DNA of 64,000 nt from Cellvibrionaceae bacterium (GTDB taxonomy: Bacteria; Pseudomonadota; Gammaproteobacteria; Pseudomonadales; Cellvibrionaceae), in NCBI GenBank assembly GCA_028281575.1, contig JANQJP010000030.1, positions 67,401 through 131,400 of the forward strand, written 5' to 3'. Each line of letters starts with the position of its first letter. Positions within the stretch are counted from its first letter, which is position 1. The notes under the pieces are model-generated. The model was not told the DNA's origin, did not search any database, and was given only the letters and a program-made list of their open reading frames with translations. Positions 16,002 through 34,033 of the stretch are shown one piece after another. Made by a program: the position numbers and the translations under genes.

Positions 16002-16045
16002 CGGCGCGGGTGGTGAGCTGGTAGCACAAATCTATACCTATGTGA

Positions 16046-16672: not shown

Positions 16673-16780
16673 AATAGAGGCTTAATCCTTTACCCGCCTA
16701 TCACATGCCTTGCTAGAAAAAGCAGCAAGGCAAAGTACCAGGCTCGCATTTTTTGCACATTCAATTCGGCTTGCATAGTA

Positions 16781-17368
16781 TTGCGCGCCATGAATGCGCT
16801 TGTCCTCTACATCGCTTCTTTTGTGCACGCCTACCTCCGTATTATCAAGCCCGGCGGCGTTAAAGCCCTGGCTGCAGAAAATGCCGCGTTAAGGCATCAA
16901 CTGGCCATTATCATACGTGGCAGAAAGCGAGCCCCGAACCTTGAGCTAAGGGATCGCATTCTCTTAGGTCTCATGATCGATCTCATCAAAGATAAGCGAT
17001 TAAACAAGGTTGCCGTATTATTAAAACCTAAAACGCTGCTACGGTGGCAAGCCAGCTTACGTTTGCTTGAGATTGCAGAAATAAAATCGATTCCAGGTAC
17101 GCCAATATCACATCCCTTTATTGAACGATTGATTGGTACTGTACGACGAGAATATTTAGATAATGTGCTTTTTGGGAATGCAACTGACTTGCAGAAAAAG
17201 CTGGACCGTTTCAAACGTTACTACAACACTCATCGAACACACTATTCCCTTAAACATCACACGCCTCAATGTATGATGGAAAATAAAGCGGTGAAACCGT
17301 TAGATATTCACAATTATTCCTGGAAACCTGCTTGTCGAGGTTTGTTTCAAATTTCCATCGCAGCTTAA
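16781..17368 (+). pseudogene. Decayed transposase (integrase-core, DDE-type) remnant of a second IS family.
   Basis: N-terminal ENAALRHQLA coiled-coil typical of IS3/IS481 transposases is joined directly to a C-terminal rve-like segment (PISHPFIERLIGTVRREYLD). The catalytic core is missing. Confidence 0.55.
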
Positions 17369-17560
17369 ATTTAACAATTCGAGCGCTACACTTCCTAATA
17401 CAAATACTCAACCATTGCTCTCGTAATTAATAGCTTAATTGTTGAGGAGCCGTCGGATGCCCGTTTCAATAAAGCATCTGCCTCGTCTAAAGACGAGTAT
17501 TGAGCGAGCTTTTCCTGCTGAGAGATTGCCTTAATGCTAAGAAATATGCTTTTAATCCAA

Positions 17561-20254: not shown

Positions 20255-20452
20255 GTGTTGTCCTCAAATCAATATCTTTTTCAAACAAAATAGTAACGAA
20301 TGCAAATTAACAATTCAAATCAACTTCATCGGCTACGTAAAAAACCGACACCCATGTAACACCTTACATAGGTCAGACCAGACGATCAGAAAAACTTCAC
20401 TTGGGCAGTGCACGTTAAGAGCGCAGCGCAATATTATTATAATTTGTACAAA

Positions 20453-21481
20453 TTATTGTTTTATTTCGAATATAAATCGATTGCGAACACCGGGAACCTC
20501 AACTCTTTCTCCGTCTACTTCCTTGGGTTTGTACACGAACTTGGCAGCGGTCTTCAAACTTGTCTCAATAAATATTTCATTACTGCACTCAACCACTTTT
20601 AAATCAGTAGTTTTTCCATTCGTCAGTACCGTATACTCGACAGTGCAAAAGCCTTGAATATTATCTAATATCGCCTGCTTAGGATAACTGGGTGCGACCT
20701 TCACAATTGGAAGATAGTCGCCGTTAGGCTTTTCTAGCTCAGCTATTTTTTCTTCAACAACGGCTTTCATACCTCCCATATCAACCTTGTTCAAAATATC
20801 TAGCTTTAACTGATAAAGCTCCTTTGAATTCAAAGGCTTTCCTGATTTTGAAATGCTGATATCAACTAATTTCAAAGCTTCATCATATTTTTCTTCATAG
20901 TGCAGCACCACCGCTCTTAAACTTGTGAGCTCCTGATACCGTTTTGGGGATAGCGCCTTTATTTTTTCCAAATACGGCTTAACTTCTTGTGGTCGCCCTA
21001 GGCGATATTCAATCGCTGCGGAAAGGACTAAAGCGTTAAGCTCAGTAGCCACAGGTATTTTTGGAGAAAAGGTCACCACCCTGTCATTCATATCTTTTGA
21101 AACTTGTAGATCACCTTCTTGATAAAAGATATAAGCGTAGTAAAGGTAGATATGTGACTTTTCGTACTCATTACAGCTCGTTTCACAAAAAAGCTCCATA
21201 TCTTTTAATTTGGCCTTGGCCAGCACATAATCTGGCTCAACATAGCCAAGCGTTGCATAATCTGGAGAAAGTAAATCTGATACTTCCTTCATTTTTTTGA
21301 AGAACGATTCGCTAATGCCTTGAATTGGTCTTCGGTGCGATGTTGCATTAGACTTGCTGTTCATCTGAGGGTCAGTGTGAGTTTTTGTCGGTGCGCACGC
21401 AACCAGATAAGTAGTCAAGACCACTAGAAAAGATCTAGAAATCAGAAAGGAAAGAAAATGTTTTTTATTCAACAAATACAT
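20453..21481 (-). CDS. TPR-containing lipoprotein with a TonB C-terminal domain.
   Basis: Lipobox LVACAP. The C-terminal ~90 aa (YPKQAILDNIQGFCTVEYTV...VECSNEIF...AAKFVYKP) match the TonB_C fold. Confidence 0.6.
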   Translation of the reverse strand: MYLLNKKHFLSFLISRSFLVVLTTYLVACAPTKTHTDPQMNSKSNATSHRRPIQGISESFFKKMKEVSDLLSPDYATLGYVEPDYVLAKAKLKDMELFCETSCNEYEKSHIYLYYAYIFYQEGDLQVSKDMNDRVVTFSPKIPVATELNALVLSAAIEYRLGRPQEVKPYLEKIKALSPKRYQELTSLRAVVLHYEEKYDEALKLVDISISKSGKPLNSKELYQLKLDILNKVDMGGMKAVVEEKIAELEKPNGDYLPIVKVAPSYPKQAILDNIQGFCTVEYTVLTNGKTTDLKVVECSNEIFIETSLKTAAKFVYKPKEVDGERVEVPGVRNRFIFEIKQ

Positions 21482-21939
21482 ATGTCACTGCCCAAAAGTT
21501 AATACGGTAGCTCCAGTTATCCACTTAATCTATTCTATTTTTCACAAGCATTTCGGTTAATTCGTAAGGGTATATAGTCTCTCTTCCTGGATATGAGCTT
21601 TTCACCCAAGGAGTAAAGCCGTACAGTTTTAAGAGGTTATTTCAGGTATTTTTATAGAATCAAAAAGTGATAATTTAATTATCGCTATAGTAACTATCGG
21701 TTTTATCTAGCTGACTATAAGGTTGATCAATACATGACTTCGTTGGTTTTAGAGGCACAGATTTTATGATTCCGTGCAGTGTTTTGAAAGTAATTCTATC
21801 GCAAGTTTCTTTAGAGGTAGGTATAAGATGTTGAGCCTGAACCTCATTGTTAAACGTACTTCGTGACGCCCAGGCCTGATCACCTTGCAAATCATCTAAT
21901 CTACCTCCTAAAGCAGTTCCATTCCCACTAACATTTACA

Positions 21940-22629
21940 CTATCCACAACTAATGACTCCTTGGCCAGGTTTTCTCGCAACTTCAGAATATGTTTGAATT
22001 CCAGAAACATTTTCACTTCGCAGCAGGGACAATAATTCTTCGTTAAAATAAACTATGTTTCTTTGTCCCCAAATTCGCCACAGCGGTATCTTCGCCAATT
22101 CATTTTTCAAAAAATCATTATTTTGAATTGCTGACAACATCTTTCTTTCCTTCGGACTTACATCGTAAGATTTTCTAGGAGCAAAAAAATTCTCATCGTA
22201 ATGGTCAAAGCTTAAGAATTTCCTAACGTTTAGGCGGAAGTACTGTTGCTCATTCAATACAGCACCTTTTTTATCTGTAAAGTCGCTCTCTACAAACTGA
22301 TGTTCAAAGCTATCAAGTTCCAGAATTATTTTTTTAACTTTCGACGAAACAGCAACAAACGAACCTGAAGTTCGCACATCAGGAAGATCCACCCCTTTCT
22401 TAAGGCTTATCATCGTATCGATTGAAGCCCATTTTTCATCAACGCAAGGCGCACGATAGACTTTCACATTATAATTTGAAAGGTCGGAATCTAATTCATC
22501 AAAACACCACTCAAACTCTTGAGGCGGAACATCATGACCCGCCATAACTCTAGGAGACCGCCCCACAGATTTGTGGAATTTAATTTTTGTGCCGCCATAA
22601 ACCGTTAAAAATCTATAAAATGTCGCCAT
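21940..22629 (-). CDS. Hypothetical protein (possible immunity-protein-like).
   Basis: 229-aa ORF in the AT-rich island with no known catalytic motif. Confidence 0.3.
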   Translation of the reverse strand: MATFYRFLTVYGGTKIKFHKSVGRSPRVMAGHDVPPQEFEWCFDELDSDLSNYNVKVYRAPCVDEKWASIDTMISLKKGVDLPDVRTSGSFVAVSSKVKKIILELDSFEHQFVESDFTDKKGAVLNEQQYFRLNVRKFLSFDHYDENFFAPRKSYDVSPKERKMLSAIQNNDFLKNELAKIPLWRIWGQRNIVYFNEELLSLLRSENVSGIQTYSEVARKPGQGVISCG

Positions 22630-22636
22630 AATGTAT

Positions 22637-22972
22637 TTATTCGTTGTTATGAGATAAACGTAGGAACGCAGGATAATTATTTGATGCCGTAATATTTTTT
22701 ACAGTAAATTTCGAACCATAATTTGTTGTAATATTCTCATTGTCTTTTAATGCAGCTCCACTACAAACGATATACGCAGCCGTATTAAAAGCGTGTTCCG
22801 AAATTTTCGCTGGTGTTAAATCACACGAAGAAACTTCAATCTCAAACCCCAAAAACGGCGCAATACCCTTTGTTACAACACCAACCTTTGAGTTATTTTC
22901 AGGCTGAAAAAAGTGAATACTGGCCCAATAAGTAACAGGCAGTTGAAACGCTGCGGTTGGGTCGTTATTCAA
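22637..22972 (-). CDS. Hypothetical protein.
   Basis: 111-aa ORF co-oriented with its neighbours. Confidence 0.25.
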   Translation of the reverse strand: MNNDPTAAFQLPVTYWASIHFFQPENNSKVGVVTKGIAPFLGFEIEVSSCDLTPAKISEHAFNTAAYIVCSGAALKDNENITTNYGSKFTVKNITASNNYPAFLRLSHNNE

Positions 22973-23324
22973 TAGGAACTAAGCTATTTCCCGAGTTGAC
23001 CTCAGATAAATCAAACGAATAAACTACCGCTCCAATCTGTACGGAATATTGAATATACCCACCTTCTCCTAAGGCACTGGACATATCACTAATTGTTTGA
23101 GATCTTGAAAAATTTATATCAGTCTCGATTGAACTTAACAGTGATTCATCAAAAACTCCACCATTATCAGCTATTAGTTGCTCAAGTGGATGAAAGTAAA
23201 TTGACTTAGTCCAATGGTAAGTAAGCTCTACATCAGGATGAAAAGGGCTAAACTCTCCAAAAGCTTCAATCTCATATTCCTCTCCAGCTCTAACAGTAAA
23301 GTCATTTGGTAGCTCAACAGACAC
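22965..23324 (-). CDS. Hypothetical protein.
   Basis: 119-aa ORF overlapping the start of the downstream ORF by 8 nt, suggesting an operon. Confidence 0.25.
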   Translation of the reverse strand: MSVELPNDFTVRAGEEYEIEAFGEFSPFHPDVELTYHWTKSIYFHPLEQLIADNGGVFDESLLSSIETDINFSRSQTISDMSSALGEGGYIQYSVQIGAVVYSFDLSEVNSGNSLVPIE

Positions 23325-23384
23325 CGAAATGCTTTCAGATCTTGCAATTTACTCTGACACCCACTGTACCACTTGCCCGCCCTT

Positions 23385-23470
23385 TCACCCCAGATTTTGA
23401 GGCTTCTAACATGGGTGTCTAGGTAAGCATCTACGAAGGCTTTGTACCATTAGATACCCACACGAATGCC
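23385..23470 (+). mobile_element. IS3-family transposase fragment (third remnant).
   Basis: gaggcttctaacatgggtgtct matches the remnant at 14190 in 20 of 21 nt, and is followed by a stop-interrupted transposase-like segment. Confidence 0.5.
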
Positions 23471-23822
23471 TTCCACCAGGCACGCTTTCTGGCGATAACC
23501 TTAGTACTACTTACAGCGTATAAAGAGTTAAAAACTGTTGGATGCTATGGAAACACTGAATTAAAAATGTCAATTTAGATAGAAAATGACACAAATTACA
23601 CGAGCGGAATACGTCCGCCTAAATCAGGGCTCCAGTTACTTGCGCCTGAACCAGGAGGAGCAAAAATCGCCATAGATCTGATCGCAGCAACGGTAGCTCT
23701 TGCGGCAAGAATTCCAACTATCGAAGTAGCCCTTAGAGCGCCACCAAGAGAAACAAAGTTCCCTTTATTGATTTATATAGACAACCTCTCCATACGCATC
23801 CACTAACTATCACACTTGGCTA

Positions 23823-23913
23823 AACTTCTCAAAAATCTAAAATATTGAGAAGATAGCTGTTAAACTTCTCAAATTTCGCTATTATTGAGAATTAAAGACC
23901 AAAACTTCTCAAA
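23823..23913 (+). promoter_or_regulatory. Repeated operator-like sites upstream of fic.
   Basis: Three direct copies of aacttctcaaa, two of them within cttctcaa-N12-ttgagaag palindromes, lie within 110 bp of the fic start. Confidence 0.45.
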
Positions 23914-23932
23914 AAACCGGGTATTTTGAAGC

Positions 23933-24991
23933 ATGAGCAGCGTCAAATTGAATAAATTACCACCAACTCAAGAACTGGAAACACCAGCTATTCTGAGAGC
24001 ACTGGTTGACGCACATAGGCACTTGGCTGAACTCAAAGGTGTCGCCAAAACTATCCCGAACGAAGGCATTTTAATATCGACGCTTTCACTTCAGGAAGCT
24101 CAAAGCAGCTCTGAAATTGAAAATATTATCACCACTCAAGATGCGCTTTATAAACAAGAGCTGCAGACGAGCGTATCTGATCCCGTGGCGAAAGAAGTTG
24201 CCTATTACGCTGCCGCATTACGATCAGGCTTCGACAAAGTGAAGCAACAAGACGCGCTTACTTTAAATACCATCATGGAAGTTCAGCAAACGCTTGAAGG
24301 AAACAGAGCAGGCTTCAGAAAAATACCCGGCACTGTGCTTAAAAATGACCGAACAGGCGAAGTTGTATTTGAACCTCCTTCACCCGAGTTAGTGCCTCAA
24401 TATATGTCAGACCTCGAGTCGTTTATTAACGCGGAGCAAAACCTCGACCCGTTAGTTTGCATGGCACTTATACATCATCAGTTTGAAACTATTCATCCTT
24501 TTTACGATGGCAATGGTCGCTCTGGCCGTATCGTTAATATCCTTTACTTACTGCTGAAAGGTCTCTTAGACACACCGATCCTATATTTGAGCCGGTACAT
24601 CAACCAAACCAAAGATGAGTACTACACAGAACTTCAAAACGTTCGTGACACAAATGAGTGGGAAGCTTGGCTTCTCTATATGCTTAGAGGTGTGAGCTCA
24701 ACAGCGATACACACCATCGATCTAGTTCAAAAGATCCAGAAGCTGTTACTCGAAATAAAGCAAGAAATCCGTGACAAACACAAATTTTACAGCCAAGACC
24801 TCATAAATAATTTATTTCGCCACCCATACACTAAAGTCGCTTTTCTAGAAAAAGACCTTGGCGTATCTCGTGCAACAGCCACTCGATACTTAGATGCTCT
24901 CTCAGATGATGGAACTCTCCAAAAGCATAAGCTCGGTAGAGAAAGCTTCTATATGAATCAAAGGCTCATCGGTGTGCTGTTTAATATGTAA
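23933..24991 (+). CDS. Fic/DOC family protein (class II, with internal inhibitory motif).
   Basis: Canonical HPFYDGNGRSGR (HPFx[D/E]GNGR). N-terminal SSEIEN matches the SxxxE[G/N] inhibitory helix. C-terminal winged-helix region. Confidence 0.85.
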   Translation: MSSVKLNKLPPTQELETPAILRALVDAHRHLAELKGVAKTIPNEGILISTLSLQEAQSSSEIENIITTQDALYKQELQTSVSDPVAKEVAYYAAALRSGFDKVKQQDALTLNTIMEVQQTLEGNRAGFRKIPGTVLKNDRTGEVVFEPPSPELVPQYMSDLESFINAEQNLDPLVCMALIHHQFETIHPFYDGNGRSGRIVNILYLLLKGLLDTPILYLSRYINQTKDEYYTELQNVRDTNEWEAWLLYMLRGVSSTAIHTIDLVQKIQKLLLEIKQEIRDKHKFYSQDLINNLFRHPYTKVAFLEKDLGVSRATATRYLDALSDDGTLQKHKLGRESFYMNQRLIGVLFNM

Positions 24992-25354: not shown

Positions 25355-25429
25355 GGGCCGTTAGTTCAACGGTTAGAACCCTGGCCTCATAAGCCAGTTA
25401 CGAGAGTTCGACTCTCTCACGGCCCACCA
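25355..25429 (+). tRNA. tRNA-Met or Ile2 (anticodon CAT).
   Basis: Acceptor gggccgt/acggccc, anticodon arm ctggc-ctcataa-gccag, T-loop gttcgac, encoded CCA. Confidence 0.75.
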
Positions 25430-25789
25430 AATTTAGGAAATCAACAGGAAAAAGAGATTTATTTTAATTGAGGCTTAGAACATTTTTTTATAGATGAATA
25501 GTGTGATTTAACCGGTAGGGAAATTTTGAATTTTAATCAATTTTTCTCCGATGTCCCCTTCCCGAAATTTTGCCATATGCTGCAATAGGGAATTGCTCAC
25601 CCTAAAGAAAAATAACGCTATATAATATTCGGGAATACACCCAAAAAATCACCAAAAATTAAATTTGAAAAGAAAAAAAACAGCGCGTATCGTTTAAAAC
25701 AGATTCGCAACACGAACAAAAAACAGTAAGTAAAAAATTATGAAATTTAACTATCAGCAACATAGCAAGCATTTTTATTTATTGGGCTG

Positions 25790-25950
25790 GCCCACACCAT
25801 CCATAGATACAAATGTACTCCGTAGTGGGCTAGAACGTCCCTGCGTAACTTTTGGTGATAGCAAACTAATGTAAGCAGCTTTCGATAACGGAAGGCTGTG
25901 CCTTCCGGTGAATTAGAGAAACCCCGGTTGGCAACAATCGGGGTTTTTTT
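25790..25950 (+). ncRNA. Candidate small RNA with intrinsic terminator.
   Basis: Several stable hairpins (gcccac/gtgggc, ggaagg/ccttcc) end in ccccg-N-cgggg plus T7. No ORF. Confidence 0.3.
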
Positions 25951-26289
25951 ATGCCCACGGATGGGCGGTATAACGCAAGAGCCATGGATGGCGTTAGCGT
26001 ACGTTTTAGGAAGAACGAATTCGCGAAAGCTGGATGCTAAGTAGCGGAATTTTATGGAGTAGTACTCGCACGGATTGCGATTTTTGTTTCTAGCAATCGG
26101 AATTGCTAAACGCGCAATGGATGTGCGGAAACAATTTTATTTAGGTGTGATACCCACCGACACGGTATCGGTTTTTTAACAATGTGGTCGCTTTTTTTGG
26201 CAGGTAGCTGCTTTCCCCTTTTAATAAGGGCAAAGCCCTCGGCGTCTAACTGATTAGACATAGGTGCCTTTCCTATTCTGCCAACCAAT

Positions 26290-26364
26290 GTCCCTATGGT
26301 CTAGTGGTGAGGACTCCTGACTTTCTATCAGGCAGCGCCGGTTCGAGTCCGGCTAGGGATACCA
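26290..26364 (+). tRNA. tRNA-Glu (TTC).
   Basis: Anticodon arm cctga-ctttcta-tcagg, T-arm gccggttcgagtccggc, CCA. Confidence 0.7.
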
Positions 26365-26371
26365 AATTTTT

Positions 26372-26596
26372 GGGCATGCAGGCGAGAATGGAGAACCACT
26401 ACCAAAAACGATTAGGTTAAGGGTAGCCGGGTAAAACCGGAGGTTACTGAAATAAGCTATTACGCATGGTTGAGGATGCAGGCTCGATGCTCTACGGCGG
26501 GTGTCAGCTGGCGCGCGTTTTCCAAGTAATTAGCTTGGCTGAGAGTAATGCCTCAGTTGTTTCCTTTCGCGGGTTCGAATCCCGCCATGTCCACCA
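26372..26596 (+). ncRNA. Interrupted tRNA-like gene: canonical T-arm/acceptor/CCA with the cognate 5' acceptor strand 215 nt upstream.
   Basis: 3' end is gcgggttcgaatcccgc-catgtcc-a-cca. The only complementary 5' strand is gggcatg at 26372 (one G-U pair). About 150 nt of extra structured sequence lies between them. Confidence 0.4.
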
Positions 26597-26602
26597 ATTG
26601 TT

Positions 26603-26677
26603 ACGTCGATAGCTTAATGGAAAAGCGTTGGTCTCCAAAACCAGAAGATGTGGGTTCAAATCCTACTCGGTGTGCCA
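26603..26677 (+). tRNA. tRNA-Trp (CCA).
   Basis: Anticodon loop ctccaaa, T-arm gtgggttcaaatcctac, acceptor with two G-U pairs, CCA. Confidence 0.65.
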
Positions 26678-26728
26678 AATAAAAGCGGGATAGTGAAGCA
26701 GAAAGGAGGGGCTCCCGCAACCAAATTT

Positions 26729-26804
26729 GTAGAGATAGCTCAAATGGCGAGAGCGCCTGATTGAAGCCCAGGAGATCCCGGTTCAATTCCGGTTCTCTAC
26801 ACCA
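26729..26804 (+). tRNA. tRNA-Phe (GAA).
   Basis: Acceptor gtagaga/tctctac, anticodon loop ttgaagc (A31·C39 mismatch), CCA. Confidence 0.6.
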
Positions 26805-26810
26805 ATTTAC

Positions 26811-26886
26811 TGCTACATAGCTTAACTGGTAAAGCGCCCGGCTGTTAACCGGGAGGATGCAGGTTCGAAGCCAGCTGTAGCAGCCA
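26811..26886 (+). tRNA. tRNA-Asn (GTT).
   Basis: Anticodon arm cccgg-ctgttaa-ccggg, CCA. Confidence 0.7.
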
Positions 26887-26891
26887 AATTA

Positions 26892-26975
26892 GGGGAAGTA
26901 CCCAAGTGGCAAAGGGATCGCACTGTAAATGCGAAATATGTTGAGACGTAGGTTCGAGTCCTACCTTCCCCACCA
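26892..26975 (+). tRNA. tRNA-Tyr (GTA), class II.
   Basis: 84 nt. Anticodon arm tcgca-ctgtaaa-tgcga, long variable arm, T-arm gtaggttcgagtcctac, CCA. Confidence 0.75.
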
Positions 26976-26982
26976 AAAACCA

Positions 26983-27073
26983 GGAAGTGTGGCCGAGCGG
27001 TGAAGGCACCGGTTTGCTAAACCGGCAAGTGACGAAAGTTGCTTCAAGAGTTCGAATCTCTTCGCTTCCGCCA
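26983..27073 (+). tRNA. tRNA-Ser (GCT), class II.
   Basis: 91 nt. ggaagtgtggccgagcgg... is Ser-like. Anticodon arm ccggt-ttgctaa-accgg, CCA. Confidence 0.8.
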
Positions 27074-27085
27074 ATTTGATTACTT

Positions 27086-27175
27086 GGAAGGTGCGGTCCA
27101 TTGGCGGACAACCGGTCTTGAAAACCGGCGAGTTGTAGAGATACGGCTGGGGTTCAACTCCTCCACCTTCTTCCA
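27086..27175 (+). tRNA. tRNA-Ser (TGA), class II, with non-canonical D- and T-stems.
   Basis: Anticodon arm ccggt-cttgaaa-accgg is identical to E. coli Ser-TGA. Discriminator U, CCA. Confidence 0.55.
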
Positions 27176-27188
27176 ACTTTTTAATAAT

Positions 27189-27265
27189 GTGCCGGTGGTG
27201 GAACTGGAATACACAACAGGTTTAAGCCCTGTTCGCTGAGGGTTCGAGTCCCTCTCGGCACACCA
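27189..27265 (+). tRNA. tRNA-Leu-like (TAA) with short variable arm.
   Basis: Anticodon arm acagg-tttaagc-cctgt. 77 nt with a 5-nt variable loop, A73, CCA. Confidence 0.5.
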
Positions 27266-27270
27266 ATAAT

Positions 27271-27347
27271 GGCCAGCTGATGGAATTGGCATACATGCGT
27301 GCCTTAGAAGCACGATTTTCCGAGTTCGAATCTCGGGCTGGCTACCA
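27271..27347 (+). tRNA. tRNA-Leu-like (TAG) with short variable arm.
   Basis: Leu-type D-arm (tggaattggcatacatgcg), anticodon arm cgtgc-cttagaa-gcacg, 77 nt, A73, CCA. Confidence 0.5.
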
Positions 27348-27353
27348 ATTTAA

Positions 27354-27430
27354 GCAGGTGTGGCGCAATAGGCAGACGCGCTGGATTCAAATCCCAGATG
27401 TTGTGAGTTCGACTCTCACCACCTGCACCA
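27354..27430 (+). tRNA. tRNA-Leu-like (CAA) with short variable arm.
   Basis: D-arm gtggcgcaataggcagacgcg is nearly identical to the bacterial Leu D-arm. Anticodon loop ttcaaat, variable loop only 5 nt, A73, CCA. Confidence 0.55.
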
Positions 27431-27435
27431 AAACT

Positions 27436-27634
27436 CGTGGAGTAGTTTAATCGTTTGCAGTTTTTTGCTCCTGCAAAAACTGCATTTCCACCATCCTTGG
27501 TGGTCAATGCGATTTTCATAAAATTGGTGTTGGTGGTTCACAAATTTTTCAGGAAAAAATTTGGGCGTCTGTATAGACGGTTGCGAAGCAACTGACTACA
27601 TGGATGTAGTCATCAACCCCACCCTCCACGACCA
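27436..27634 (+). tRNA. tRNA(CAT)-like gene carrying a D-region insertion and a T-arm insertion (199 nt).
   Basis: Acceptor cgtggag/ctccacg + A + CCA. Anticodon arm cgatt-ttcataa-aattg. T-stem ggtgg/ccacc and T-loop ttcacaa are followed by a ~75-nt insert. A ~70-nt insert lies between the acceptor and the anticodon arm. Confidence 0.45.
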
Positions 27635-27643
27635 ATTAAAAAT

Positions 27644-27718
27644 AGCAGTGTGGTGTAACTGGCAACACACGTGACTTTGACTCACGTATTTCAGGTTCGA
27701 ATCCTGGCGCTGCTGCCA
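27644..27718 (+). tRNA. tRNA-Gln (TTG).
   Basis: Anticodon arm cgtga-ctttgac-tcacg, G73, CCA. Confidence 0.7.
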
Positions 27719-27730
27719 AATAAAAACTAT

Positions 27731-27881
27731 GCACGAGTGGCAGAGAGGGTATGCGCGGGATTGCAAACCCCGTATTACGCCGGTTAGACAAAATTGTAGG
27801 AACAATTTTGGGATGCGCTTTGCACAGGTTGCGAAGCAACTTAACACACGGATGTGTTAACCAATCCGGCCTCGTGCTCCA
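27731..27881 (+). tRNA. tRNA-Cys (GCA) with an ~80-nt insertion after the T-loop (151 nt).
   Basis: Acceptor gcacgag/ctcgtgc + U73 (Cys identity) + CCA. Anticodon loop ttgcaaa. T-stem gccgg/ccggc is split by the structured insert. Confidence 0.55.
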
Positions 27882-27886
27882 ATTTC

Positions 27887-27962
27887 GGGGGCCCATGTAC
27901 CAAGGGGGCGACGATGCTTTGCAAGCATTGTGTGGTCGGTTCGATTCCGACGGTCTCCACCA
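27887..27962 (+). tRNA. tRNA-Ala (TGC).
   Basis: G3·U70 identity pair is present. Anticodon loop tttgcaa, T-arm gtcggttcgattccgac, A73, CCA. The D-arm is non-canonical. Confidence 0.6.
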
Positions 27963-28419
27963 GAACTAAACCTTTTAGGTTTATTGGGTATGGCCAAGAT
28001 AGCACGGTGTAAATCGTGTAAAGGGGGGACGCCTGCGTAACTCCGCCAGAGCAATCTGGTCAATCCATGCAAGCCGAGCCTGCAGAGGCTTCATCACAAG
28101 ATGGAGATATCAGCAATGATGTAGAGCGTCTGAATGAGTTTAAGCACCTTTGAGTAAAAAACTTGGAGGAAATGCAAGCTCATAAATCAGCAAGTGGTGT
28201 TGGATCACGCTCAAACCAATACATTTACCTGAGACAGGCAAAGGGTAGCGCAAAGGTGCGATCCGCAAGAGAGTGCATTTGTGCAGTTGATAAGTGTCGG
28301 AAGAAAAACCGTCGCTTTGAAAACCGTTAAGTAAGCGGTAGCTGAAAGACATGTGGCGAGTGGCATTTTGTCGATCAAAAGTCGATAAAACCACAGGACG
28401 TGCTCGCTGCAGCAGGTTG

Positions 28420-28492
28420 TTGAAATTAGCTCAACTGGTAGAGCAATTGACTCGTAATCAATAGGCTGCTGGTTCAATCCCAGCATTTCAAA
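28420..28492 (+). tRNA. tRNA-Thr (CGT).
   Basis: Acceptor ttgaaat/atttcaa (all A/T), D-arm tagctcaactggtagagc, anticodon arm attga-ctcgtaa-tcaat. No encoded CCA. Confidence 0.65.
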
Positions 28493-28846
28493 CCCAAACA
28501 GAAAAATGCAAAGACACGTCCGGTGTTTTGTGAAAATGGCTTAATGCCTTGCTACGCAAGTAGAACAAGGCTGATTAACCGGCCGCAAGCTGGAAGATCA
28601 TCTGTCACAACGTGCACGTTGGTCGCAAACCTTTAGAGCTCGCAAGGCTCGCGGTAACGAAAGGGCAGAAAAACAAAACACGACAAGTGAATCGCCACAC
28701 TTTTAAAAAAAGGCAGCCATGTCGAATTACATCCTTGTCCCCTGCGGGAAATGATGTGGATACGAAATTAACTTGTGGTCGCAAGCCACAAGGTAAGGTT
28801 TCAAAAGGTTCGACGCAAACGCTGTAGTCTCAAGCGTTTAATTTTC

Positions 28847-28925
28847 GGTTCGTTAGCTTAGCCTGATTTAAAGCACTCGGTAGTCAGCCGAGGGATCACG
28901 GGTTTAAATCCCGTACGAACCGCCA
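28847..28925 (+). tRNA. tRNA-Asp (GTC).
   Basis: Acceptor ggttcgt/acgaacc, anticodon arm ctcgg-tagtcag-ccgag (A33 is unusual), G73, CCA. Confidence 0.6.
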
Positions 28926-28926
28926 A

Positions 28927-29000
28927 GCGGCATTGACCGAATGGCGAGGTACCTGCCTTCCAAGCAGAGGAACAGGGTTCGATTCCCTGATGCCGCTCCA
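28927..29000 (+). tRNA. tRNA-Gly (TCC).
   Basis: Acceptor gcggcat/atgccgc, anticodon loop cttccaa, U73, CCA. Confidence 0.7.
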
Positions 29001-29031
29001 ATTTATTTTTCATCTATTAAAAATTTTCTTT

Positions 29032-29109
29032 CCGGGTTTAGCTCAGTTTGCGAAGAGCGCTTGCTTTGGGAGCAAGAGGCCCTAGGTTCGAATCCTAGTA
29101 CCCGGACCA
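29032..29109 (+). tRNA. tRNA-Pro (TGG).
   Basis: D-arm tagctcagtt..., anticodon arm cttgc-tttggga-gcaag, A73, CCA. Confidence 0.7.
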
Positions 29110-29116
29110 AATTAAT

Positions 29117-29330
29117 GGACGTGTAGCTCAATGCCCTCGGGTGCAACTGGGTGGCAAATTTTTGCTCCTGCAAAGTTTTCATTTCCGCCATCCATGGCGG
29201 TCAGCACCTGTTTTACACACAGGATACGGTGGTTCACAACTTTGCAGGAGTAAGAGTTGGACGCCCAAACGGGCGGTCGCGAAGCGATTATTTACAGGGA
29301 TGTAAATAACAATTCCATTCACGTCTACCA
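29117..29330 (+). tRNA. tRNA-Val(TAC)-like gene with D-region and T-arm insertions (214 nt).
   Basis: Acceptor ggacgtg/cacgtct + A + CCA. Anticodon arm cctgt-tttacac-acagg. T-loop ttcacaa is followed by a ~75-nt insert. A D-region insert shares ttttgctcctgcaaa and a covarying hairpin with the gene at 27436. Confidence 0.45.
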
Positions 29331-29349
29331 CTTCAAATTTTAAAAAAAT

Positions 29350-29502
29350 GCTCACGTCGCTTAACGGCAAAGCACTTCCCTTGTAAGGAAGATGATGACG
29401 GTTCAAATAATTTGACAGGATCAAATTAAGGCGTCCTTTAGGGCGGTTACGAAGTAACTGTTTTACATGGATGTAAAACATCAATCCAGTCCGTGAGCTC
29501 CA
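29350..29502 (+). tRNA. tRNA-Thr(TGT)-like with an ~80-nt insertion after the T-loop (153 nt).
   Basis: Acceptor gctcacg/cgtgagc + U + CCA. D-stem gctt/aagc. Anticodon arm cttcc-cttgtaa-ggaag. T-loop ttcaaat, then the insert. Confidence 0.5.
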
Positions 29503-29506
29503 ATTT

Positions 29507-29582
29507 GCTCGATTAGTTTAATTGAAGAAAACGCTGGCGTGCGAAGCCGGTAATGCAGGTTTGAATCCTGCATCGAGCGCCA
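29507..29582 (+). tRNA. tRNA-Arg (GCG; unusual anticodon).
   Basis: Acceptor gctcgat/atcgagc, anticodon arm ctggc-gtgcgaa-gccgg, G73, CCA. Confidence 0.55.
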
Positions 29583-29594
29583 ATTTATTTTTTT

Positions 29595-29669
29595 CCGCTC
29601 GTGGCGTAATGGTAGCGCATCGGCCTTTTAAGCCGACAGGTGTAGGTTCAAGTCCTACCGGGCGGACCA
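29595..29669 (+). tRNA. tRNA-Lys (TTT).
   Basis: Anticodon arm tcggc-cttttaa-gccga, A73, CCA. Confidence 0.75.
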
Positions 29670-29676
29670 ATTCTTT

Positions 29677-29752
29677 GCTCCCGTAGCTCAATGAATAGAG
29701 CACTTGTCTTCGAAACAAGTTGATGCTGGTTTGAATCCAGCCGGGAGTGCCA
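29677..29752 (+). tRNA. tRNA-Arg (TCG).
   Basis: D-arm tagctcaatgaatagagc, anticodon arm cttgt-cttcgaa-acaag, G73, CCA. Confidence 0.65.
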
Positions 29753-29776
29753 ATTAACGATAAGAGAATACTTAGG

Positions 29777-29849
29777 GGTGGCTATAGCATAGTGCCAATG
29801 CCCCTGGTTGTGATCCAGGTTGACATGGGTTCGAATCCCATTAGTCACC
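29777..29849 (+). tRNA. tRNA-His (GTG) with G-1:C73, embedded in a 13-bp inverted-repeat extension.
   Basis: Extra 5' G pairs with C73 (His identity). Anticodon arm cctgg-ttgtgat-ccagg. Flanks gagaatacttagg / cctaagtattctc are perfect inverted repeats. No CCA. Confidence 0.7.
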
Positions 29850-29886
29850 CCTAAGTATTCTCAATTACTCAATCAAGGAGAGCATC

Positions 29887-30180
29887 ATGCGCATAGCACT
29901 AAGTAAACGCGAGTGTTATCACGCAGATATTTATTGCAGTGATAGCAACTCCGCGAAAAAAATACTAAGAGAAAATCCGATTTCCATATTAGCCGTGGAT
30001 TTTTATTTGTATGGCCGTGAAAACGGTACTCATGTCTTAGCATGGGCTAGGACAAAAAAACTACTTCCACATTATGTAGTGGTAACAGAAAGCGACCGCA
30101 ATAAACGTGTTCTATTAGCTGAAGAGCTCACGAAAGGAGGTTACAACTCTGCTGATGGAACAACATTTATAAAACATTAA
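29887..30180 (+). CDS. Hypothetical small protein inside the tRNA array.
   Basis: Strong SD (aaggaga) 8 nt upstream of ATG. 97 aa. Fold unknown; weak resemblance to receiver-like domains. Confidence 0.45.
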   Translation: MRIALSKRECYHADIYCSDSNSAKKILRENPISILAVDFYLYGRENGTHVLAWARTKKLLPHYVVVTESDRNKRVLLAEELTKGGYNSADGTTFIKH

Positions 30181-30181
30181 T

Positions 30182-30258
30182 GTCCTCGTGGCTCAACTGG
30201 AGAGCGCAACGGATTTCTACTCCGTAGGTTGTGGGTTCGAATCCTACCGGGGACGCCA
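30182..30258 (+). tRNA. tRNA-Arg (TCT).
   Basis: D-arm tggctcaactggagagc, anticodon arm acgga-tttctac-tccgt, G73, CCA. Confidence 0.65.
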
Positions 30259-30284
30259 GTATAGCAACCAGTAGGAGCAACGAG

Positions 30285-30842
30285 ATGGGCAGAGTATTGC
30301 GCTTAGATATTTCCGGAACGCCAACTTCTTGGCTTTCGCGGAAAGAAGCGGCCGTTTTATATGTTAAAAATTTAGTGCAGTGGGAACTTGGAGATAAAAG
30401 TTTAGTTATCTTCGGAGGAACAAACCGATTAACCGGAAAACAATCTTCGTTGGAAATCAGCCCAGTTATTGCAACTCGAGGTGATACTCATCGAAGAAAA
30501 TTGGTTTCCGGATTTAATAATCGAATGCTATTCCGTCGAGACAATTATCACTGCATGTACTGTGGTGGAAAATTTAGTCACGTAGAATTGACACGAGATC
30601 ACGTAGTACCGCGTGCACAAGGAGGATTAGATATTTGGGAAAATGTTGTGGCAGCCTGTGGAAGGTGCAATCACTTTAAAGCGGACCGCACACCTGAACA
30701 AGCGGGTATGAAGTTATTAGCCATACCTTTTAGACCAAATATATTTGAATCCATGTACTTAGCACAACACAAAGTACTAGCAGATCAAATGGAATACTTG
30801 GAAAAACAATTTTCAGGTAAAAGAACTTGGAAAGCGGCGTAA
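30285..30842 (+). CDS. HNH endonuclease.
   Basis: DHVVPRAQGG...WENVVAACGRCNHFK HNH/ββα-Me motif with a Cys zinc knuckle (CMYCGG). SD aggag upstream of the ATG at 30285. The longer ORF annotated from 30231 would overlap the tRNA. Confidence 0.8.
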   Translation: MGRVLRLDISGTPTSWLSRKEAAVLYVKNLVQWELGDKSLVIFGGTNRLTGKQSSLEISPVIATRGDTHRRKLVSGFNNRMLFRRDNYHCMYCGGKFSHVELTRDHVVPRAQGGLDIWENVVAACGRCNHFKADRTPEQAGMKLLAIPFRPNIFESMYLAQHKVLADQMEYLEKQFSGKRTWKAA

Positions 30843-30975
30843 ATTACTTACGTCGTATTCCATACAGAAGTTTATATCTTCGCCGAGAGTTAGCGGAACT
30901 GGTTCTGTACGCCAGTCTGGCACAAGCGTTGTTAACGTGCTGTGTACCAATTCGAAAGCGGGAATAAATTGGATG

Positions 30976-31052
30976 GTTTTTGTAGCTCATTCGGGTAGAG
31001 CAATAGACTCATAATCTATCGGTAGCGGGTTCGATTCCCGTCAAAAACACCA
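30976..31052 (+). tRNA. tRNA-Met or Ile2 (CAT), second copy.
   Basis: Acceptor gtttttg/caaaaac, D-arm tagctcattcgggtagagc, anticodon arm ataga-ctcataa-tctat, A73, CCA. Confidence 0.65.
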
Positions 31053-31421: not shown

Positions 31422-32579
31422 ATGTTCTTTTTAAAAACAGTTGATATTGCCGATAACGAACGAGCGTTGCTCTTTGATCGAGATCGGCTACAAAAAGTAC
31501 TTGGCCCAGGGCGACACCGCTTGTCTACTTTTGGGCGAAAGTTAACAGTAGAAAAGTTTGACATTACTTCAGTGCGCTTTGAGCACCCAAAGCTCAAGTT
31601 TTTGGTGCGTCAGTACCAAGCGCTTCTTGAAGACTATGTAGATGTGTTTGAGCTAAATGATAGTGAGGTCGGTGTTATCTACCGCGATCAAAAAATCTCG
31701 GATATTCTACCTCCAAGTAATTTATTGGTTACTTGGAAAGGTGCTGAGGACGTTCGAGTAGATATCGTCGATATCACTAAAAACTATGAAATCAAAGATG
31801 AACTAGTTGCACTTTTAGGTCGAGGCGTAAAAATCGGTACAAGCCGACAAGTTGTGAATGCCATTAGCTATGCAGAGGTACCAGATGAACATGTGGGGCT
31901 TCTACAAGTTAACGGTAAGTTAGAGCGTGTACTTGAGACCGGCGCTTACGCCTTCTGGAAATACAACCGGTCAATTGTAGTAAAGCTGCTTGATTTACGT
32001 GTACAGACCATTGATGTAAGCGGCCAAGAAATCTTGACTAAAGATCGTGTGAGCTTGCGTATTAACTTGTCAGCGAGCTACAACATTGTCGATCCAGAAA
32101 GCGTTGCACTAAAACTGAAAGATTACGCGAACTTTCTGTACTTAGAGCTTCAATTGCGATTGCGAGAAGCCGTGGGCACAAAACTATTAGATGAATTACT
32201 TGAAGATAAGGATGCCCTCAACTCAGTGATCGCGAATGGCGTTAGTGAGAAACTAGCCGAGTTTGGTATAAAGTTGCGAAGTGTGGGTGTAAAAGACATT
32301 ATTCTACCCGGTGATATGAAAGTGATCCTAAATCAAGTTGTCGAAGCTCAAAAAGAAGCCGAAGCTAACGTGATTAAACGACGAGAAGAAACTCAAGCAA
32401 TGCGATCACTACATAACACCGCAAAAGTAATGGAAAACAACCCAGTGCTATTGCGATTGAAGGAGCTTGAAGCGCTAGAACGAATCACTGCAAAAATCGA
32501 TAAGATTTCTGTATATGGTGGTTTAGATAGTGTACTCAATGACATGGTCAAACTAGCTCCTTCCAAACCGGCTCAATAA
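31422..32579 (+). CDS. SPFH/band-7 (stomatin/prohibitin/flotillin/HflK-C-like) domain protein.
   Basis: Central SPFH-like region followed by a long coiled-coil Ala/Glu-rich segment. SD aaggaaa upstream. Confidence 0.75.
   Translation: MFFLKTVDIADNERALLFDRDRLQKVLGPGRHRLSTFGRKLTVEKFDITSVRFEHPKLKFLVRQYQALLEDYVDVFELNDSEVGVIYRDQKISDILPPSNLLVTWKGAEDVRVDIVDITKNYEIKDELVALLGRGVKIGTSRQVVNAISYAEVPDEHVGLLQVNGKLERVLETGAYAFWKYNRSIVVKLLDLRVQTIDVSGQEILTKDRVSLRINLSASYNIVDPESVALKLKDYANFLYLELQLRLREAVGTKLLDELLEDKDALNSVIANGVSEKLAEFGIKLRSVGVKDIILPGDMKVILNQVVEAQKEAEANVIKRREETQAMRSLHNTAKVMENNPVLLRLKELEALERITAKIDKISVYGGLDSVLNDMVKLAPSKPAQ

Positions 32580-32785: not shown

Positions 32786-34033
<1,248 letters not shown>

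What the first reader, a model, noticed from the sequence alone, without database searches (positions are those of the whole stretch)
27189..27430. Three consecutive Leu-type tRNAs (TAA, TAG, CAA) that have lost the class II long variable arm
The D-arms are clearly Leu-like (tggcgcaataggcagacgcg vs canonical tggcgaaattggtagacgc) and the anticodons are Leu. Each is only 77 nt with a 5-nt variable loop, which is unprecedented for bacterial tRNA-Leu. A73, the LeuRS identity element, is retained. These could be functional minimal Leu tRNAs or decoys.
Basis: partly seen in the sequence, partly recalled or inferred. Interest (0 to 1): 0.7.

Follow-up and report, generated by a model that had tools for sequence, protein, structure and literature searches.

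The report
Armless phage-type leucine tRNAs
Three neighbouring leucine tRNA genes really do lack the long extra arm that textbook leucine tRNAs carry. This is the usual form of leucine tRNA in phage genomes and in mobile tRNA gene clusters, so it is a real but already documented kind of molecule.

Summary
Positions 27189-27265, 27271-27347 and 27354-27430 encode tRNA-Leu(UAA), (UAG) and (CAA). Each is 77 nt including an encoded CCA, with a 5-nt variable loop, A73 and a Leu-type D-arm.

"Unprecedented" does not hold.
- The genes sit in a 5.7-kb horizontally acquired tRNA array: 23 tRNAs, a GOLLD RNA and an HNH endonuclease gene, inside a bacterial chromosome.
- BLAST found similar genes in 261 phage records, including 164 T5-like phages.
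- In these loci Ser and Tyr tRNAs keep their long arms.
- The GenBank note for the T5/BF23 homologue says an anticodon-CUA version is an effective amber suppressor in E. coli.
- Streptomyces coelicolor has a characterised short-armed tRNA-Leu.

All known E. coli LeuRS identity elements are present, and the arm is not one of them. Most likely these are working leucine tRNAs charged by the host LeuRS. Why the arm was lost is inference.

Seen in passing: four tRNA genes of the array carry structured insertions in the T-loop, two of them also in the D-loop. The D-loop insert is an undescribed 50-nt module found in at least 120 metagenome contigs.

The parts
27189..27265 (+). tRNA-Leu(UAA), short variable loop (TCGCT), A73, encoded CCA
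   Evidence: ARAGORN. Rfam tRNA 53.9 bits with a 5-nt variable region. Nearest relatives are short-armed Leu tRNAs of viral contigs, 74-76% identical.
27271..27347 (+). tRNA-Leu(UAG), short variable loop (ATTTT), A73, encoded CCA; same subfamily as T5/BF23 tRNAL1
   Evidence: ARAGORN. Rfam 54.5 bits. The D-arm TGATGGAATTGGCATACAT, the anticodon loop CTTAGAA and the T loop are identical to the T5-like gene. Stems covary across 23 subfamily members.
27354..27430 (+). tRNA-Leu(CAA), short variable loop (ATGTT), A73, encoded CCA; A31.C39 mismatch
   Evidence: ARAGORN. Rfam 55.1 bits. It is 86% identical to the Leu(tag) gene of Proteus phage RP7 and differs mainly in the anticodon arm.
25355..31052 (+). 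tRNA array that contains the three genes: 23 tRNA genes called by ARAGORN, all on one strand, about 4 per kb
   Evidence: ARAGORN and Rfam. The flanking genes are ordinary bacterial chromosomal genes.
26892..27175 (+). tRNA-Tyr (84 nt), tRNA-Ser(gct) (91 nt) and tRNA-Ser(tga) (90 nt) directly upstream; these keep long variable arms and serve as an internal control
   Evidence: ARAGORN lengths. The Rfam alignment shows the long variable insertions for Tyr and Ser(gct).
28351..28836 (+). GOLLD RNA with tRNA-Thr(cgt) embedded at 28420-28494; a marker of phage or prophage tRNA islands
   Evidence: Rfam RF02032, 199.3 bits against a gathering score of 150, E 1e-55. GOLLD is described as lying near tRNA islands, with tRNAs sometimes in its linker (bioRxiv 10.1101/2024.12.08.627333).
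30231..30842 (+). HNH endonuclease ORF inside the array. The listed start overlaps tRNA-Arg(tct), so the true start is probably further downstream.
   Evidence: Pfam HNH_5 E 2.5e-14 and HNH E 9.5e-12. Homing endonucleases next to tRNA arrays are described in PMC8421152 and PMC13096335.

Best explanation
The three genes are working leucine tRNAs of the phage or mobile-array type (class I / type I tRNA-Leu). They belong to a horizontally acquired tRNA array, a tRNA island with GOLLD RNA and an HNH endonuclease gene, sitting in a bacterial chromosome.

The proposed mechanism has four steps.
1. The array is transcribed. The closely packed tRNAs (5-6 nt spacers, CCA encoded) are cut out by the host's normal tRNA-processing enzymes.
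2. The host leucyl-tRNA synthetase charges them. Bacterial LeuRS of the E. coli type reads A73 and the shape of the D/T elbow (U8:A14, A15:U48, G18G19, A20a). It reads neither the anticodon nor the long arm, and all of the elements it does read are present.
3. With anticodons UAA, CAA and UAG, the three tRNAs can together read all six leucine codons.
4. The long arm was lost in the mobile or phage tRNA lineage. [quoted passage not shown]

Shown here: the structure, the identity elements, the array context, the wide distribution, and purifying selection on the armless cloverleaf. Taken from a GenBank record note: the T5/BF23 homologue works in E. coli translation. Inferred: charging by this host's LeuRS, use in translation in this organism, and the reason the arm was lost.
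For: Structure and identity elements:
- Searches give the structure and the identity nucleotides of the three genes.
- The E. coli leucine identity set is A73, A15:U48, G18G19, A20a and the D/T tertiary pairs. The long arm is dispensable, and variants lacking the arm are still charged (review PMC9976931).

Selection on the fold:
- 23 members of the UAG subfamily were picked by loop sequence only.
- 98.9% of stem cells pair and 17 of 20 pairs show compensatory changes. The observed cell-based and covariation measures were reached by 0 of 500 shuffles, and the count of pairs changed on both sides by 1 of 500.
- U8, A14, A15, G18, G19, A20a, U48, the anticodon loop positions 32-36 and 38 (position 37 is A in at least 90% of sequences) and A73 are invariant.

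Function of a homologue:
- The BF23 tRNAL1 note reads 'replacement of the anticodon with CUA sequence converts this tRNA into effective amber suppressor'.
- That gene is 100% identical to the T5-like gene. It shares every loop with the window's Leu(UAG).

Distribution:
- 261 phage records match the three genes.
- 164 T5-like records carry the UAG type, 131 of them at 99% identity or more.
- At least 120 genome contigs and at least 120 viral contigs carry such genes.

Specificity to Leu:
- Genome set: 212 of 247 Leu tRNAs have variable loops of 6 nt or less. All 79 Ser have 13 nt or more, and 40 of 42 Tyr have 11 nt or more.
- Viral set: 172 of 246 Leu are short. All 117 Ser have 14 nt or more, and 54 of 55 Tyr have 10 nt or more.
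- Of 96 short-armed Leu tRNAs that the search pattern did not select, 85 have A73 and 94 have U48.

Age: the three window genes are only 61-68% identical to one another but 76-86% identical to short-armed Leu tRNAs elsewhere, so they are old lineages and not fresh duplicates.
Against: - There are no expression or charging data for this organism, and the organism and its LeuRS were not identified.
- E. coli LeuRS could not charge the Streptomyces coelicolor type I tRNA-Leu(CAA) (PMC6614811). Absence of the arm is therefore not automatically tolerated.
- Leu(CAA) has an A31.C39 mismatch.
- Position 37 and its neighbours differ from what I recall of E. coli Leu tRNAs. This comparison is from memory and was not tested.
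- The array duplicates the host's own tRNA set, and four neighbouring tRNA genes carry large insertions. Parts of the array may therefore be decaying.
- The amber-suppressor statement is a depositor's note. It does not say which amino acid is inserted.
Confidence: 0.8

Rival explanations
1. The tRNAs are decoys or sponges. They are made, but their role is to soak up or distract a host tRNA-directed toxin or defence nuclease (or LeuRS itself), not to deliver leucine to the ribosome.
For: - tRNA arrays are discussed as possible anti-defence devices (PMC12803027).
- Over-expressed phage tRNA-Tyr partly protects host tRNA-Tyr from Septu (PMC13096335).
- The window carries toxin and defence-type genes close by: AbiEii, Fic and Imm11-like.
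Against: - Everything needed for translation is conserved: anticodon loops, A73, the elbow, the encoded CCA and a full set of Leu anticodons.
- The BF23 homologue works as a suppressor, so it reaches the ribosome charged.
- A decoy for an arm-directed nuclease would need the arm.
Confidence: 0.08
2. The genes are relics. The array is redundant, horizontally acquired DNA that is decaying, and the short variable loop is a deletion in dead genes.
For: - The array is redundant with a housekeeping tRNA set, which I assume exists.
- Four other tRNA genes in it carry 74-77-nt insertions.
- An IS-type integrase and transposase fragments flank the region.
Against: - The same armless architecture recurs in hundreds of independent phages and arrays, with compensatory stem changes and invariant tertiary nucleotides.
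- All three window genes score 54-55 bits with intact stems.
- T5-like phages keep the gene at 99% identity or more in 131 records.
Confidence: 0.07
3. The tRNAs carry Leu anticodons but are charged with another amino acid, recoding leucine codons. Without the arm they might be taken by a different synthetase.
For: The anticodon alone does not fix identity for leucine. Natural cases exist of tRNAs with Leu anticodons charged with Ser, Thr or Ala (yeast examples in PMC7609411).
Against: - The tRNAs have no G3.U70 (alanine) and no long arm (serine).
- From general knowledge, synthetases whose tRNAs carry A73 mostly read the anticodon, which is a leucine one here.
- The complete E. coli Leu identity set is present.
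Confidence: 0.03

Closest known systems
tRNA-Leu (tRNAL1, anticodon UAG) of phages T5/BF23 and other Tequintavirus/Demerecviridae members
   Same: - 74 nt plus CCA, a 5-nt variable loop ending in U48, and A73.
- The D-arm, anticodon loop and T loop are identical to the window's Leu(UAG).
- It lies in a tRNA region with an HNH endonuclease gene and stable RNAs of unknown function.
- Proteus phage RP7 has two adjacent short-armed Leu genes. One is 86% identical to the window's Leu(CAA).
   Different: - The stems differ; overall identity is 75%.
- The window copy is in a bacterial chromosome, not a phage genome.
- The window has three isoacceptors in a row. Only one was seen in the 5-kb T5-like stretch examined.
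Type I tRNA-Leu(CAA) of Streptomyces coelicolor (Fan et al., Nucleic Acids Res 2019, PMC6614811)
   Same: It is a bacterial tRNA-Leu with a short variable loop. It coexists with long-armed Leu tRNAs and is charged by the single cellular LeuRS. U8:A14 is shared as an identity element.
   Different: - It is described as a gene of the Streptomyces genome, not as part of a mobile array.
- E. coli LeuRS cannot charge it, and a Streptomyces-specific LeuRS segment is needed.
- Sequence relatedness to the window genes was not tested.
tRNA array units / L-arrays of bacteria (Tran et al. 2016, PMC4758250; Santamaria-Gomez et al. 2021, PMC8421152)
   Same: - A dense, one-strand cluster of 20 or more tRNA genes that covers most amino acids.
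- It is patchily distributed and horizontally transferred, with a homing endonuclease gene next to it.
- The 120 genome hits are mostly such arrays.
   Different: My term searches in those papers found no mention of the Leu tRNAs of arrays lacking the long arm. That general point comes from the counts made here.
Animal mitochondrial tRNA-Leu
   Same: It has a short variable loop, with A73 and A14 as identity elements (PMC9976931).
   Different: From general knowledge, mitochondrial tRNAs have eroded D/T loops. They are charged by a dedicated mitochondrial LeuRS. The window tRNAs have a fully canonical elbow (G18G19, TTCGA T loop).
Engineered minimalist E. coli tRNA-Leu lacking the variable arm (Larkin et al. 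2002, as summarised in PMC9976931)
   Same: It shows that E. coli LeuRS charges tRNA-Leu variants without the long arm, provided A73 and the D/T tertiary contacts are intact. Those are exactly the features the window genes retain.
   Different: These are laboratory constructs tested in vitro, not natural genes.

Membership tests
tRNA (Rfam RF00005) | Full-length match to the cloverleaf covariance model above the gathering score | tested here: met
   53.9, 54.5 and 55.1 bits against a gathering score of 29, model positions 1-71 of 71.
Canonical bacterial (class II) tRNA-Leu | Leucine anticodon | tested here: met
   Anticodons taa, tag and caa, from ARAGORN and the covariance-model alignment.
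Canonical bacterial (class II) tRNA-Leu | Discriminator A73 and the Leu-type hinge: U8:A14, A15:U48, G18G19, A20a, a 3-bp D stem and an 11-nt D loop | tested here: met
   Read from the sequences and from ARAGORN parses for Leu(taa) and Leu(tag); the identity set is listed in PMC9976931. A long-armed tRNA-Leu in metagenome locus L322 has the D-arm TGATGGAATTGGTAGACAT, 2 nt different from the window's Leu(UAG).
Canonical bacterial (class II) tRNA-Leu | Long variable arm (10 nt or more, stem-loop) | tested here: not met
   The variable region is 5 nt in all three. At 74 nt there is no sequence available for an arm, and folding gives no alternative.
Phage/array short-armed tRNA-Leu (T5/BF23 tRNAL1 type) | Leu-type D-arm, Leu anticodon, a 4-6-nt variable loop ending in U, and A73 | tested here: met
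   The pattern hits the window three times and hits at least 120 genome and at least 120 viral contigs.
Phage/array short-armed tRNA-Leu (T5/BF23 tRNAL1 type) | Sequence relatedness to known members, with stems changing by compensatory substitutions | tested here: met
   75% identity to BF23 and 86% to RP7. 17 of 20 pairs have compensatory changes.
Phage/array short-armed tRNA-Leu (T5/BF23 tRNAL1 type) | Charged with leucine and used by the ribosome | not testable with these tools
   The only evidence is indirect: the depositor's note that a CUA derivative of BF23 tRNAL1 is an effective amber suppressor.
tRNA array unit (Tran et al. 2016: at least 20 tRNA genes at 2 or more per kb) | Number and density of tRNA genes | tested here: met
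   23 genes in 5,698 bases, about 4 per kb. The definition is quoted.
Streptomyces type I tRNA-Leu(CAA) | Homology to the S. coelicolor gene and dependence on a Streptomyces-type LeuRS segment | not tested
Only the paper's description was read.
Animal mitochondrial tRNA-Leu | Organellar origin and a reduced D/T-loop interaction | tested here: not met
   G18G19 and the TTCGA T loop are canonical. The surrounding genes are bacterial.

The most novel reading that the evidence does not exclude
Loss of the long arm is an adaptation of mobile tRNA sets, not drift. Because bacterial LeuRS does not need the arm, a phage or array can delete it.

That could make its tRNA-Leu invisible to host factors that recognise long-armed tRNAs. 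These would include defence nucleases that cut variable loops, as Septu and retron-Eco7 do to tRNA-Tyr. They would also include SerRS, which selects tRNAs by arm size.

The result would be a leucine tRNA that stays intact and correctly charged in many hosts and under attack. If so, 'armless Leu' would mark tRNA sets built to survive host defence. It would also predict an undiscovered class of nucleases that target the variable arm of host tRNA-Leu.
Probability: 0.25. Interest if true: 0.6.

Novelty: new member of a known kind. Interest (0 to 1): 0.35.

Why it matters
The three genes themselves are ordinary members of a widespread group. The group, however, contradicts a statement still made in a current review, that tRNA-Leu carries a long arm everywhere except animal mitochondria (PMC9976931).

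The counts made here show a rule that the array and phage papers I searched do not mention. In mobile and phage tRNA sets the arm is commonly missing from Leu but retained in Ser and Tyr.

This has three uses:
- For annotation: some records label these genes 'tRNA-OTHER' or 'tRNA-Pseudo'.
- For recognising acquired tRNA arrays in genomes.
- For the open question of whether phage tRNAs are shaped by host tRNA-cutting defences.

Tried and rejected
1. A long-arm alternative fold. The covariance alignment and free folding give none.

2. The window as a phage genome. Rejected: megablast finds no related phage, and the flanking genes are chromosomal. These include pullulanase, a PTS, TonB-dependent receptors and tryptophan halogenases.

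3. Identifying the source organism and its housekeeping tRNA-Leu genes.
- Exact-protein look-ups returned only contigs of one sequencing run, SRR20820735. One contig breaks just after the Fic gene, at the edge of the array.

4. A synthetase gene in the window that might charge the tRNAs. None was seen among the 30 ORFs scanned.

5. A close relative of the whole array.
- The best match is a Gammaproteobacteria MAG (L030). It has a GOLLD homologue at 69% identity and a tag-taa-caa trio of short-armed Leu genes.
- No close relative was found among the viral loci.

6. Literature on armless Leu tRNAs in phages or arrays. Term searches and targeted reading found none. Subscription-journal papers on T5 tRNAs are not in the library.

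7. Relatives of the T-loop insert. There were no pattern hits in viral or metagenome collections. A covariance model found no hits in 99 other array loci.

8. The 50-nt D-loop module as a known RNA family or published sequence. There was no Rfam hit and no paper.

Full report
**The observation**

ARAGORN finds 23 tRNA genes on the + strand between 25355 and 31052. Among them are tRNA-Leu(taa) at 27189-27265, tRNA-Leu(tag) at 27271-27347 and tRNA-Leu(caa) at 27354-27430, each 77 nt. The sequence shows that each ends in A-CCA, so the 77 nt include an encoded CCA.

The Rfam tRNA model matches all three end to end at 53.9-55.1 bits, against a gathering score of 29. [quoted passage not shown] The same model needs long insertions at that point for tRNA-Tyr and tRNA-Ser(gct) immediately upstream; tRNA-Ser(tga) is 90 nt by ARAGORN. 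Free-energy folding gives no alternative with a long arm.

I wrote a pattern from the Leu-type D-arm, a Leu anticodon and the spacing that forces a 5-nt variable loop. It hits the window exactly three times and never in 100 shuffles.

**Where the genes sit**

The window is not a phage genome. Pfam assigns the large ORFs as follows:
- a pullulanase/amylase and a PTS enzyme I/HPr/EIIA fusion with an EIICB
- LacI-type regulators
- TonB and a TonB-dependent receptor
- two tryptophan halogenases
- a GGDEF protein

This is the gene content of a Gram-negative, polysaccharide-using bacterium. Assigning it to the Gammaproteobacteria is my inference; I could not identify the organism.

The tRNA cluster lies between a Fic gene (23933-24991) and an SPFH gene (31422-32579). 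It contains a GOLLD RNA (28351-28836, 199 bits) with tRNA-Thr embedded and an HNH endonuclease ORF. Nearby are an IS-type integrase, an AbiEii toxin gene and a transposase fragment.

GOLLD is known from phages and prophages, 'often near tRNA islands', sometimes with tRNAs in its linker. With 23 genes in 5.7 kb, the cluster meets the published definition of a tRNA array unit. It also fits the horizontally transferred 'L-arrays' that have neighbouring homing endonucleases.

The three Leu genes are therefore accessory, mobile-type genes, not the cell's housekeeping set.

**How unusual the missing arm is**

It is not unusual for this kind of DNA.

*Cultured phages.*
- BLAST of the three genes against GenBank phages hits 261 records.
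- Annotated tRNA-Leu genes of 74-78 nt occur in Proteus phage RP7 (two adjacent), T5-like Salmonella phage S130 and Seunavirus PVP-SE1.
- The T5-like gene is present in 164 records, 131 of them at 99% identity or more. A few records annotate it as 'tRNA-OTHER' or 'tRNA-Pseudo'.
- Phage T4, by contrast, has an 87-nt long-armed tRNA-Leu. Phages therefore carry both kinds.

- Nearly all hits are inside dense tRNA arrays, with up to 34 tRNAs in 8 kb. Several Leu isoacceptors are often all short.
- Across these loci, 212 of 247 Leu tRNAs have variable loops of 6 nt or less.
- All 79 Ser tRNAs have 13 nt or more, and 40 of 42 Tyr tRNAs have 11 nt or more.

*Viral contigs.* The same scan of IMG/VR also stopped at 120 contigs.
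- 172 of 246 Leu tRNAs are short.
- All 117 Ser have 14 nt or more, and 54 of 55 Tyr have 10 nt or more.

*Intermediates.* Some Leu tRNAs have variable loops of 7-12 nt. This suggests repeated shortening rather than one ancient event, but that is inference.

*Caveats.* Each locus was found through one short-armed Leu gene, so the fractions are not population estimates. Both scans were also truncated. Even so, 96 short-armed Leu genes in the genome set and 41 in the viral set were not selected by the pattern.

*Literature.* Streptomyces coelicolor has a type I tRNA-Leu(CAA) charged by its single LeuRS (PMC6614811). 'Unprecedented for bacterial tRNA-Leu' is therefore wrong.

**Are they functional?**

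The E. coli leucine identity set is A73, the A15:U48 pair, G18G19, A20a and the D/T-loop tertiary pairs. The anticodon and the long arm are not part of it, and variants without the arm are still charged (PMC9976931). All three window genes have U8, A14, A15, G18G19, A20a, U48 and A73.

Among 96 short-armed Leu tRNAs not selected by my pattern, 85 have A73, 94 have U48 and 79 have A14A15.

I collected 23 distinct members of the UAG subfamily using loop sequence only: the window, BF23/S130, PVP-SE1, genome loci and viral loci.
- 98.9% of stem cells pair.
- 17 of 20 pairs show changes on both sides.
- No shuffle of 500 reaches the observed cell-based or covariation values; one reaches the count of pairs changed on both sides. 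Sliding the partners by 1-3 columns drops pairing to 35-46%.
- The tertiary nucleotides, most of the anticodon loop and A73 are invariant.

This is the signature of a constrained, working RNA.

The annotated BF23 tRNA region states that replacing the anticodon of tRNAL1 with CUA 'converts this tRNA into effective amber suppressor'. That gene is identical to the T5-like gene. It shares its D-arm, anticodon loop and T loop with the window's Leu(UAG).

The three window genes are 61-68% identical to one another and 76-86% identical to short-armed Leu tRNAs elsewhere. Leu(CAA) is 86% identical to RP7 Leu(tag), differing mainly in the anticodon arm. They are old lineages, and anticodons have been swapped between them.

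UAA, CAA and UAG together can read all six Leu codons. The array as a whole uses mostly U34 anticodons in four-codon boxes, that is, a compact decoding set.

**Mechanism and its limits**

The most likely reading is that the host LeuRS charges these tRNAs and they serve in translation when the array is expressed.

Against easy generalisation, E. coli LeuRS could not charge the Streptomyces type I tRNA-Leu. Nothing is known about expression here, and Leu(CAA) has an A31.C39 mismatch.

Why the arm is missing is not shown. Leu is the class II tRNA whose synthetase does not need the arm. For Ser, arm size is the major identity element. That explains why only Leu can lose the arm, but not why it does.

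One attractive but untested idea comes from recent work. [quoted passage not shown] An armless tRNA-Leu would be immune to any similar enzyme and could not be mistaken by SerRS. I give this 0.25.

**Other things in the array**

ARAGORN's list lacks Cys, Val and Ile. By eye I found four further genes with 7-bp acceptor stems, a discriminator and an encoded CCA:
- B, 27436-27634
- C, 27731-27881
- D, 29117-29330
- E, 29350-29502

Each carries a 74-77-nt insertion between T-loop nucleotide 60 and T-stem nucleotide 61.

Deleting the insert in silico makes ARAGORN call C a canonical 76-nt tRNA-Cys(gca) with U73, and E a tRNA-Thr(tgt). B and D have anticodon arms reading CAT and TAC (Val); that reading is by eye. 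B and D also have a second insertion in the D loop.

The four T-loop inserts fold into four hairpins, and 11 of 26 pairs show compensatory changes. I found no relatives.

The D-loop insert is a 50-nt two-hairpin module (27457-27506 and 29154-29203). Its findings are:
- It occurs, at up to 98% identity among the best BLAST matches, in at least 120 metagenome contigs in unrelated contexts.
- The contexts include group II introns and hairpin loops. They also include the D loop of Leu-like tRNA 5' halves that lie upstream of normal long-armed tRNA-Leu genes.
- Its stems covary.
- It is not in Rfam, and I found no paper containing its sequence.
- Its UCCUG loop is complementary to the CAGGA loop of the first hairpin of the T-loop insert (and by eye).

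Whether these inserts are spliced out, tolerated or inactivating is unknown. A further element at 26372-26596 has tRNA-like ends with G3.U70 and a sub-threshold tmRNA match (25.3 bits, E 3e-7). T4 and BF23 records also list stable or 'tRNA-like' RNAs of unknown function in their tRNA regions.

**Verdict**

The three genes are new members of a known, widespread, under-described group.

Noticed in passing
window 27731-27881 and 29350-29502: Two tRNA genes that ARAGORN misses because of an insertion of 75 nt (27791-27865) or 77 nt (29409-29485) between T-loop nt 60 and T-stem nt 61. With the insert removed in silico they become a canonical 76-nt tRNA-Cys(gca) with U73+CCA and a tRNA-Thr(tgt). Whether the insert is spliced out or kept in the mature RNA is unknown.
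   Followed up: partly
window 27436-27634 and 29117-29330: Two longer tRNA-like genes (199 and 214 nt) with an acceptor stem, A73, CCA and the same kind of T-loop insert (27544-27617, 29240-29314). They also carry a second insertion in the D loop. By eye their anticodon arms read CAT (Ile2/Met) and TAC (Val). Together with the Cys gene they would supply the amino acids missing from the array.
   Followed up: partly
window 27544-27617, 27791-27865, 29240-29314, 29409-29485: The four T-loop inserts are one family of four hairpins (loops CAGGA-like, variable, GAA and GGA). 11 of 26 pairs are kept by compensatory changes. No copies were found in 99 other tRNA-array loci with a covariance model, nor in the viral or metagenome pattern scans. 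Homing endonucleases of tRNA arrays cut T-loop DNA (motif RAWTSGAAC, PMC13096335), so the inserts sit at a plausible homing site.
   Followed up: partly
window 27457-27506 and 29154-29203; loci L248-L367: The D-loop insert is a 50-nt module, consensus GGCAGnTTTTTGCTCCTGCAAAAnCTGC-ATTTCC-GCCATCCATGGCGG-TCA. Findings so far:
- It is found in at least 120 metagenome contigs, up to 98% identical among the best BLAST matches, in unrelated contexts.
- The contexts include group II introns, hairpin loops and the D loop of Leu-like tRNA 5' halves.
- It forms two hairpins with covariation.
- It had 0 hits in IMG/VR, no Rfam family and no paper with the sequence.

Its identity and function are unknown.
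   Followed up: partly
window 27466-27473 with 27549-27556; 29160-29174 with 29240-29254: The UCCUG loop of the D-loop module is complementary to the CAGGA loop of the first hairpin of the T-loop insert. In gene D the match is 11 nt and perfect (CTCCTGCAAAG / CTTTGCAGGAG). This suggests the two inserts dock on each other at the tRNA elbow (by eye).
   Followed up: no
window 26372-26596: A 225-nt element with tRNA-like ends (GGGCATG...CATGTCC-A-CCA, giving G3.U70) and a T arm GCGGG-TTCGAAT-CCCGC. It gives a sub-threshold Rfam tmRNA match of 25.3 bits, E 3e-7, against a gathering score of 47. ARAGORN does not call it a tmRNA.
   Followed up: no
window 28351-28836: GOLLD RNA (199 bits) with tRNA-Thr(cgt) embedded at 28420-28494. 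A homologue at 69% identity lies in a Gammaproteobacteria MAG array (L030), which also has three adjacent short-armed Leu genes.
   Followed up: partly
window 29887-30180 and 30231-30842: Two ORFs inside the array. One is an HNH endonuclease (Pfam HNH_5, E 2.5e-14). The other is a 97-aa ORF with a weak, sub-threshold hit to the cyclic-phosphate-processing receiver domain cREC_REC (E 7e-4).
   Followed up: no
window 13143-24991 and 32878-33657: The array lies in a variable region rich in conflict and mobile genes. These include an AbiEii toxin with a DUF6088 partner, an rve_3 transposase fragment, an Imm11-like ORF, a Fic protein and an IS-type integrase. GC content is 0.38-0.39 just upstream of the array and 0.46-0.49 inside it.
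   Followed up: no
window 27221-27227, 27303-27309, 27386-27392 (anticodon loops): Position 37 is G in Leu(UAA) (loop TTTAAGC) and A in Leu(UAG) (CTTAGAA). In Leu(CAA) it is A followed by T38 (TTCAAAT). The CTTAGAA loop is invariant at every position except 37, which is A in over 90% of the UAG subfamily. From memory, these differ from the loops of E. coli Leu tRNAs. This would be relevant to modification or to anticodon nucleases, but was not tested.
   Followed up: no
L247 (BF23 tRNA region, NC_042564.1) and L245 (T4): The T5-like and T4 tRNA regions are annotated with several stable or 'tRNA-like' RNAs of unknown function. In BF23 these are rna1 (144 nt), rna2 (125 nt), RNA 2H (172 nt) and RNAX (784 nt); in T4 they are rnaC and rnaD. 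They are a loose precedent for the odd tRNA-like genes of this array.
   Followed up: no
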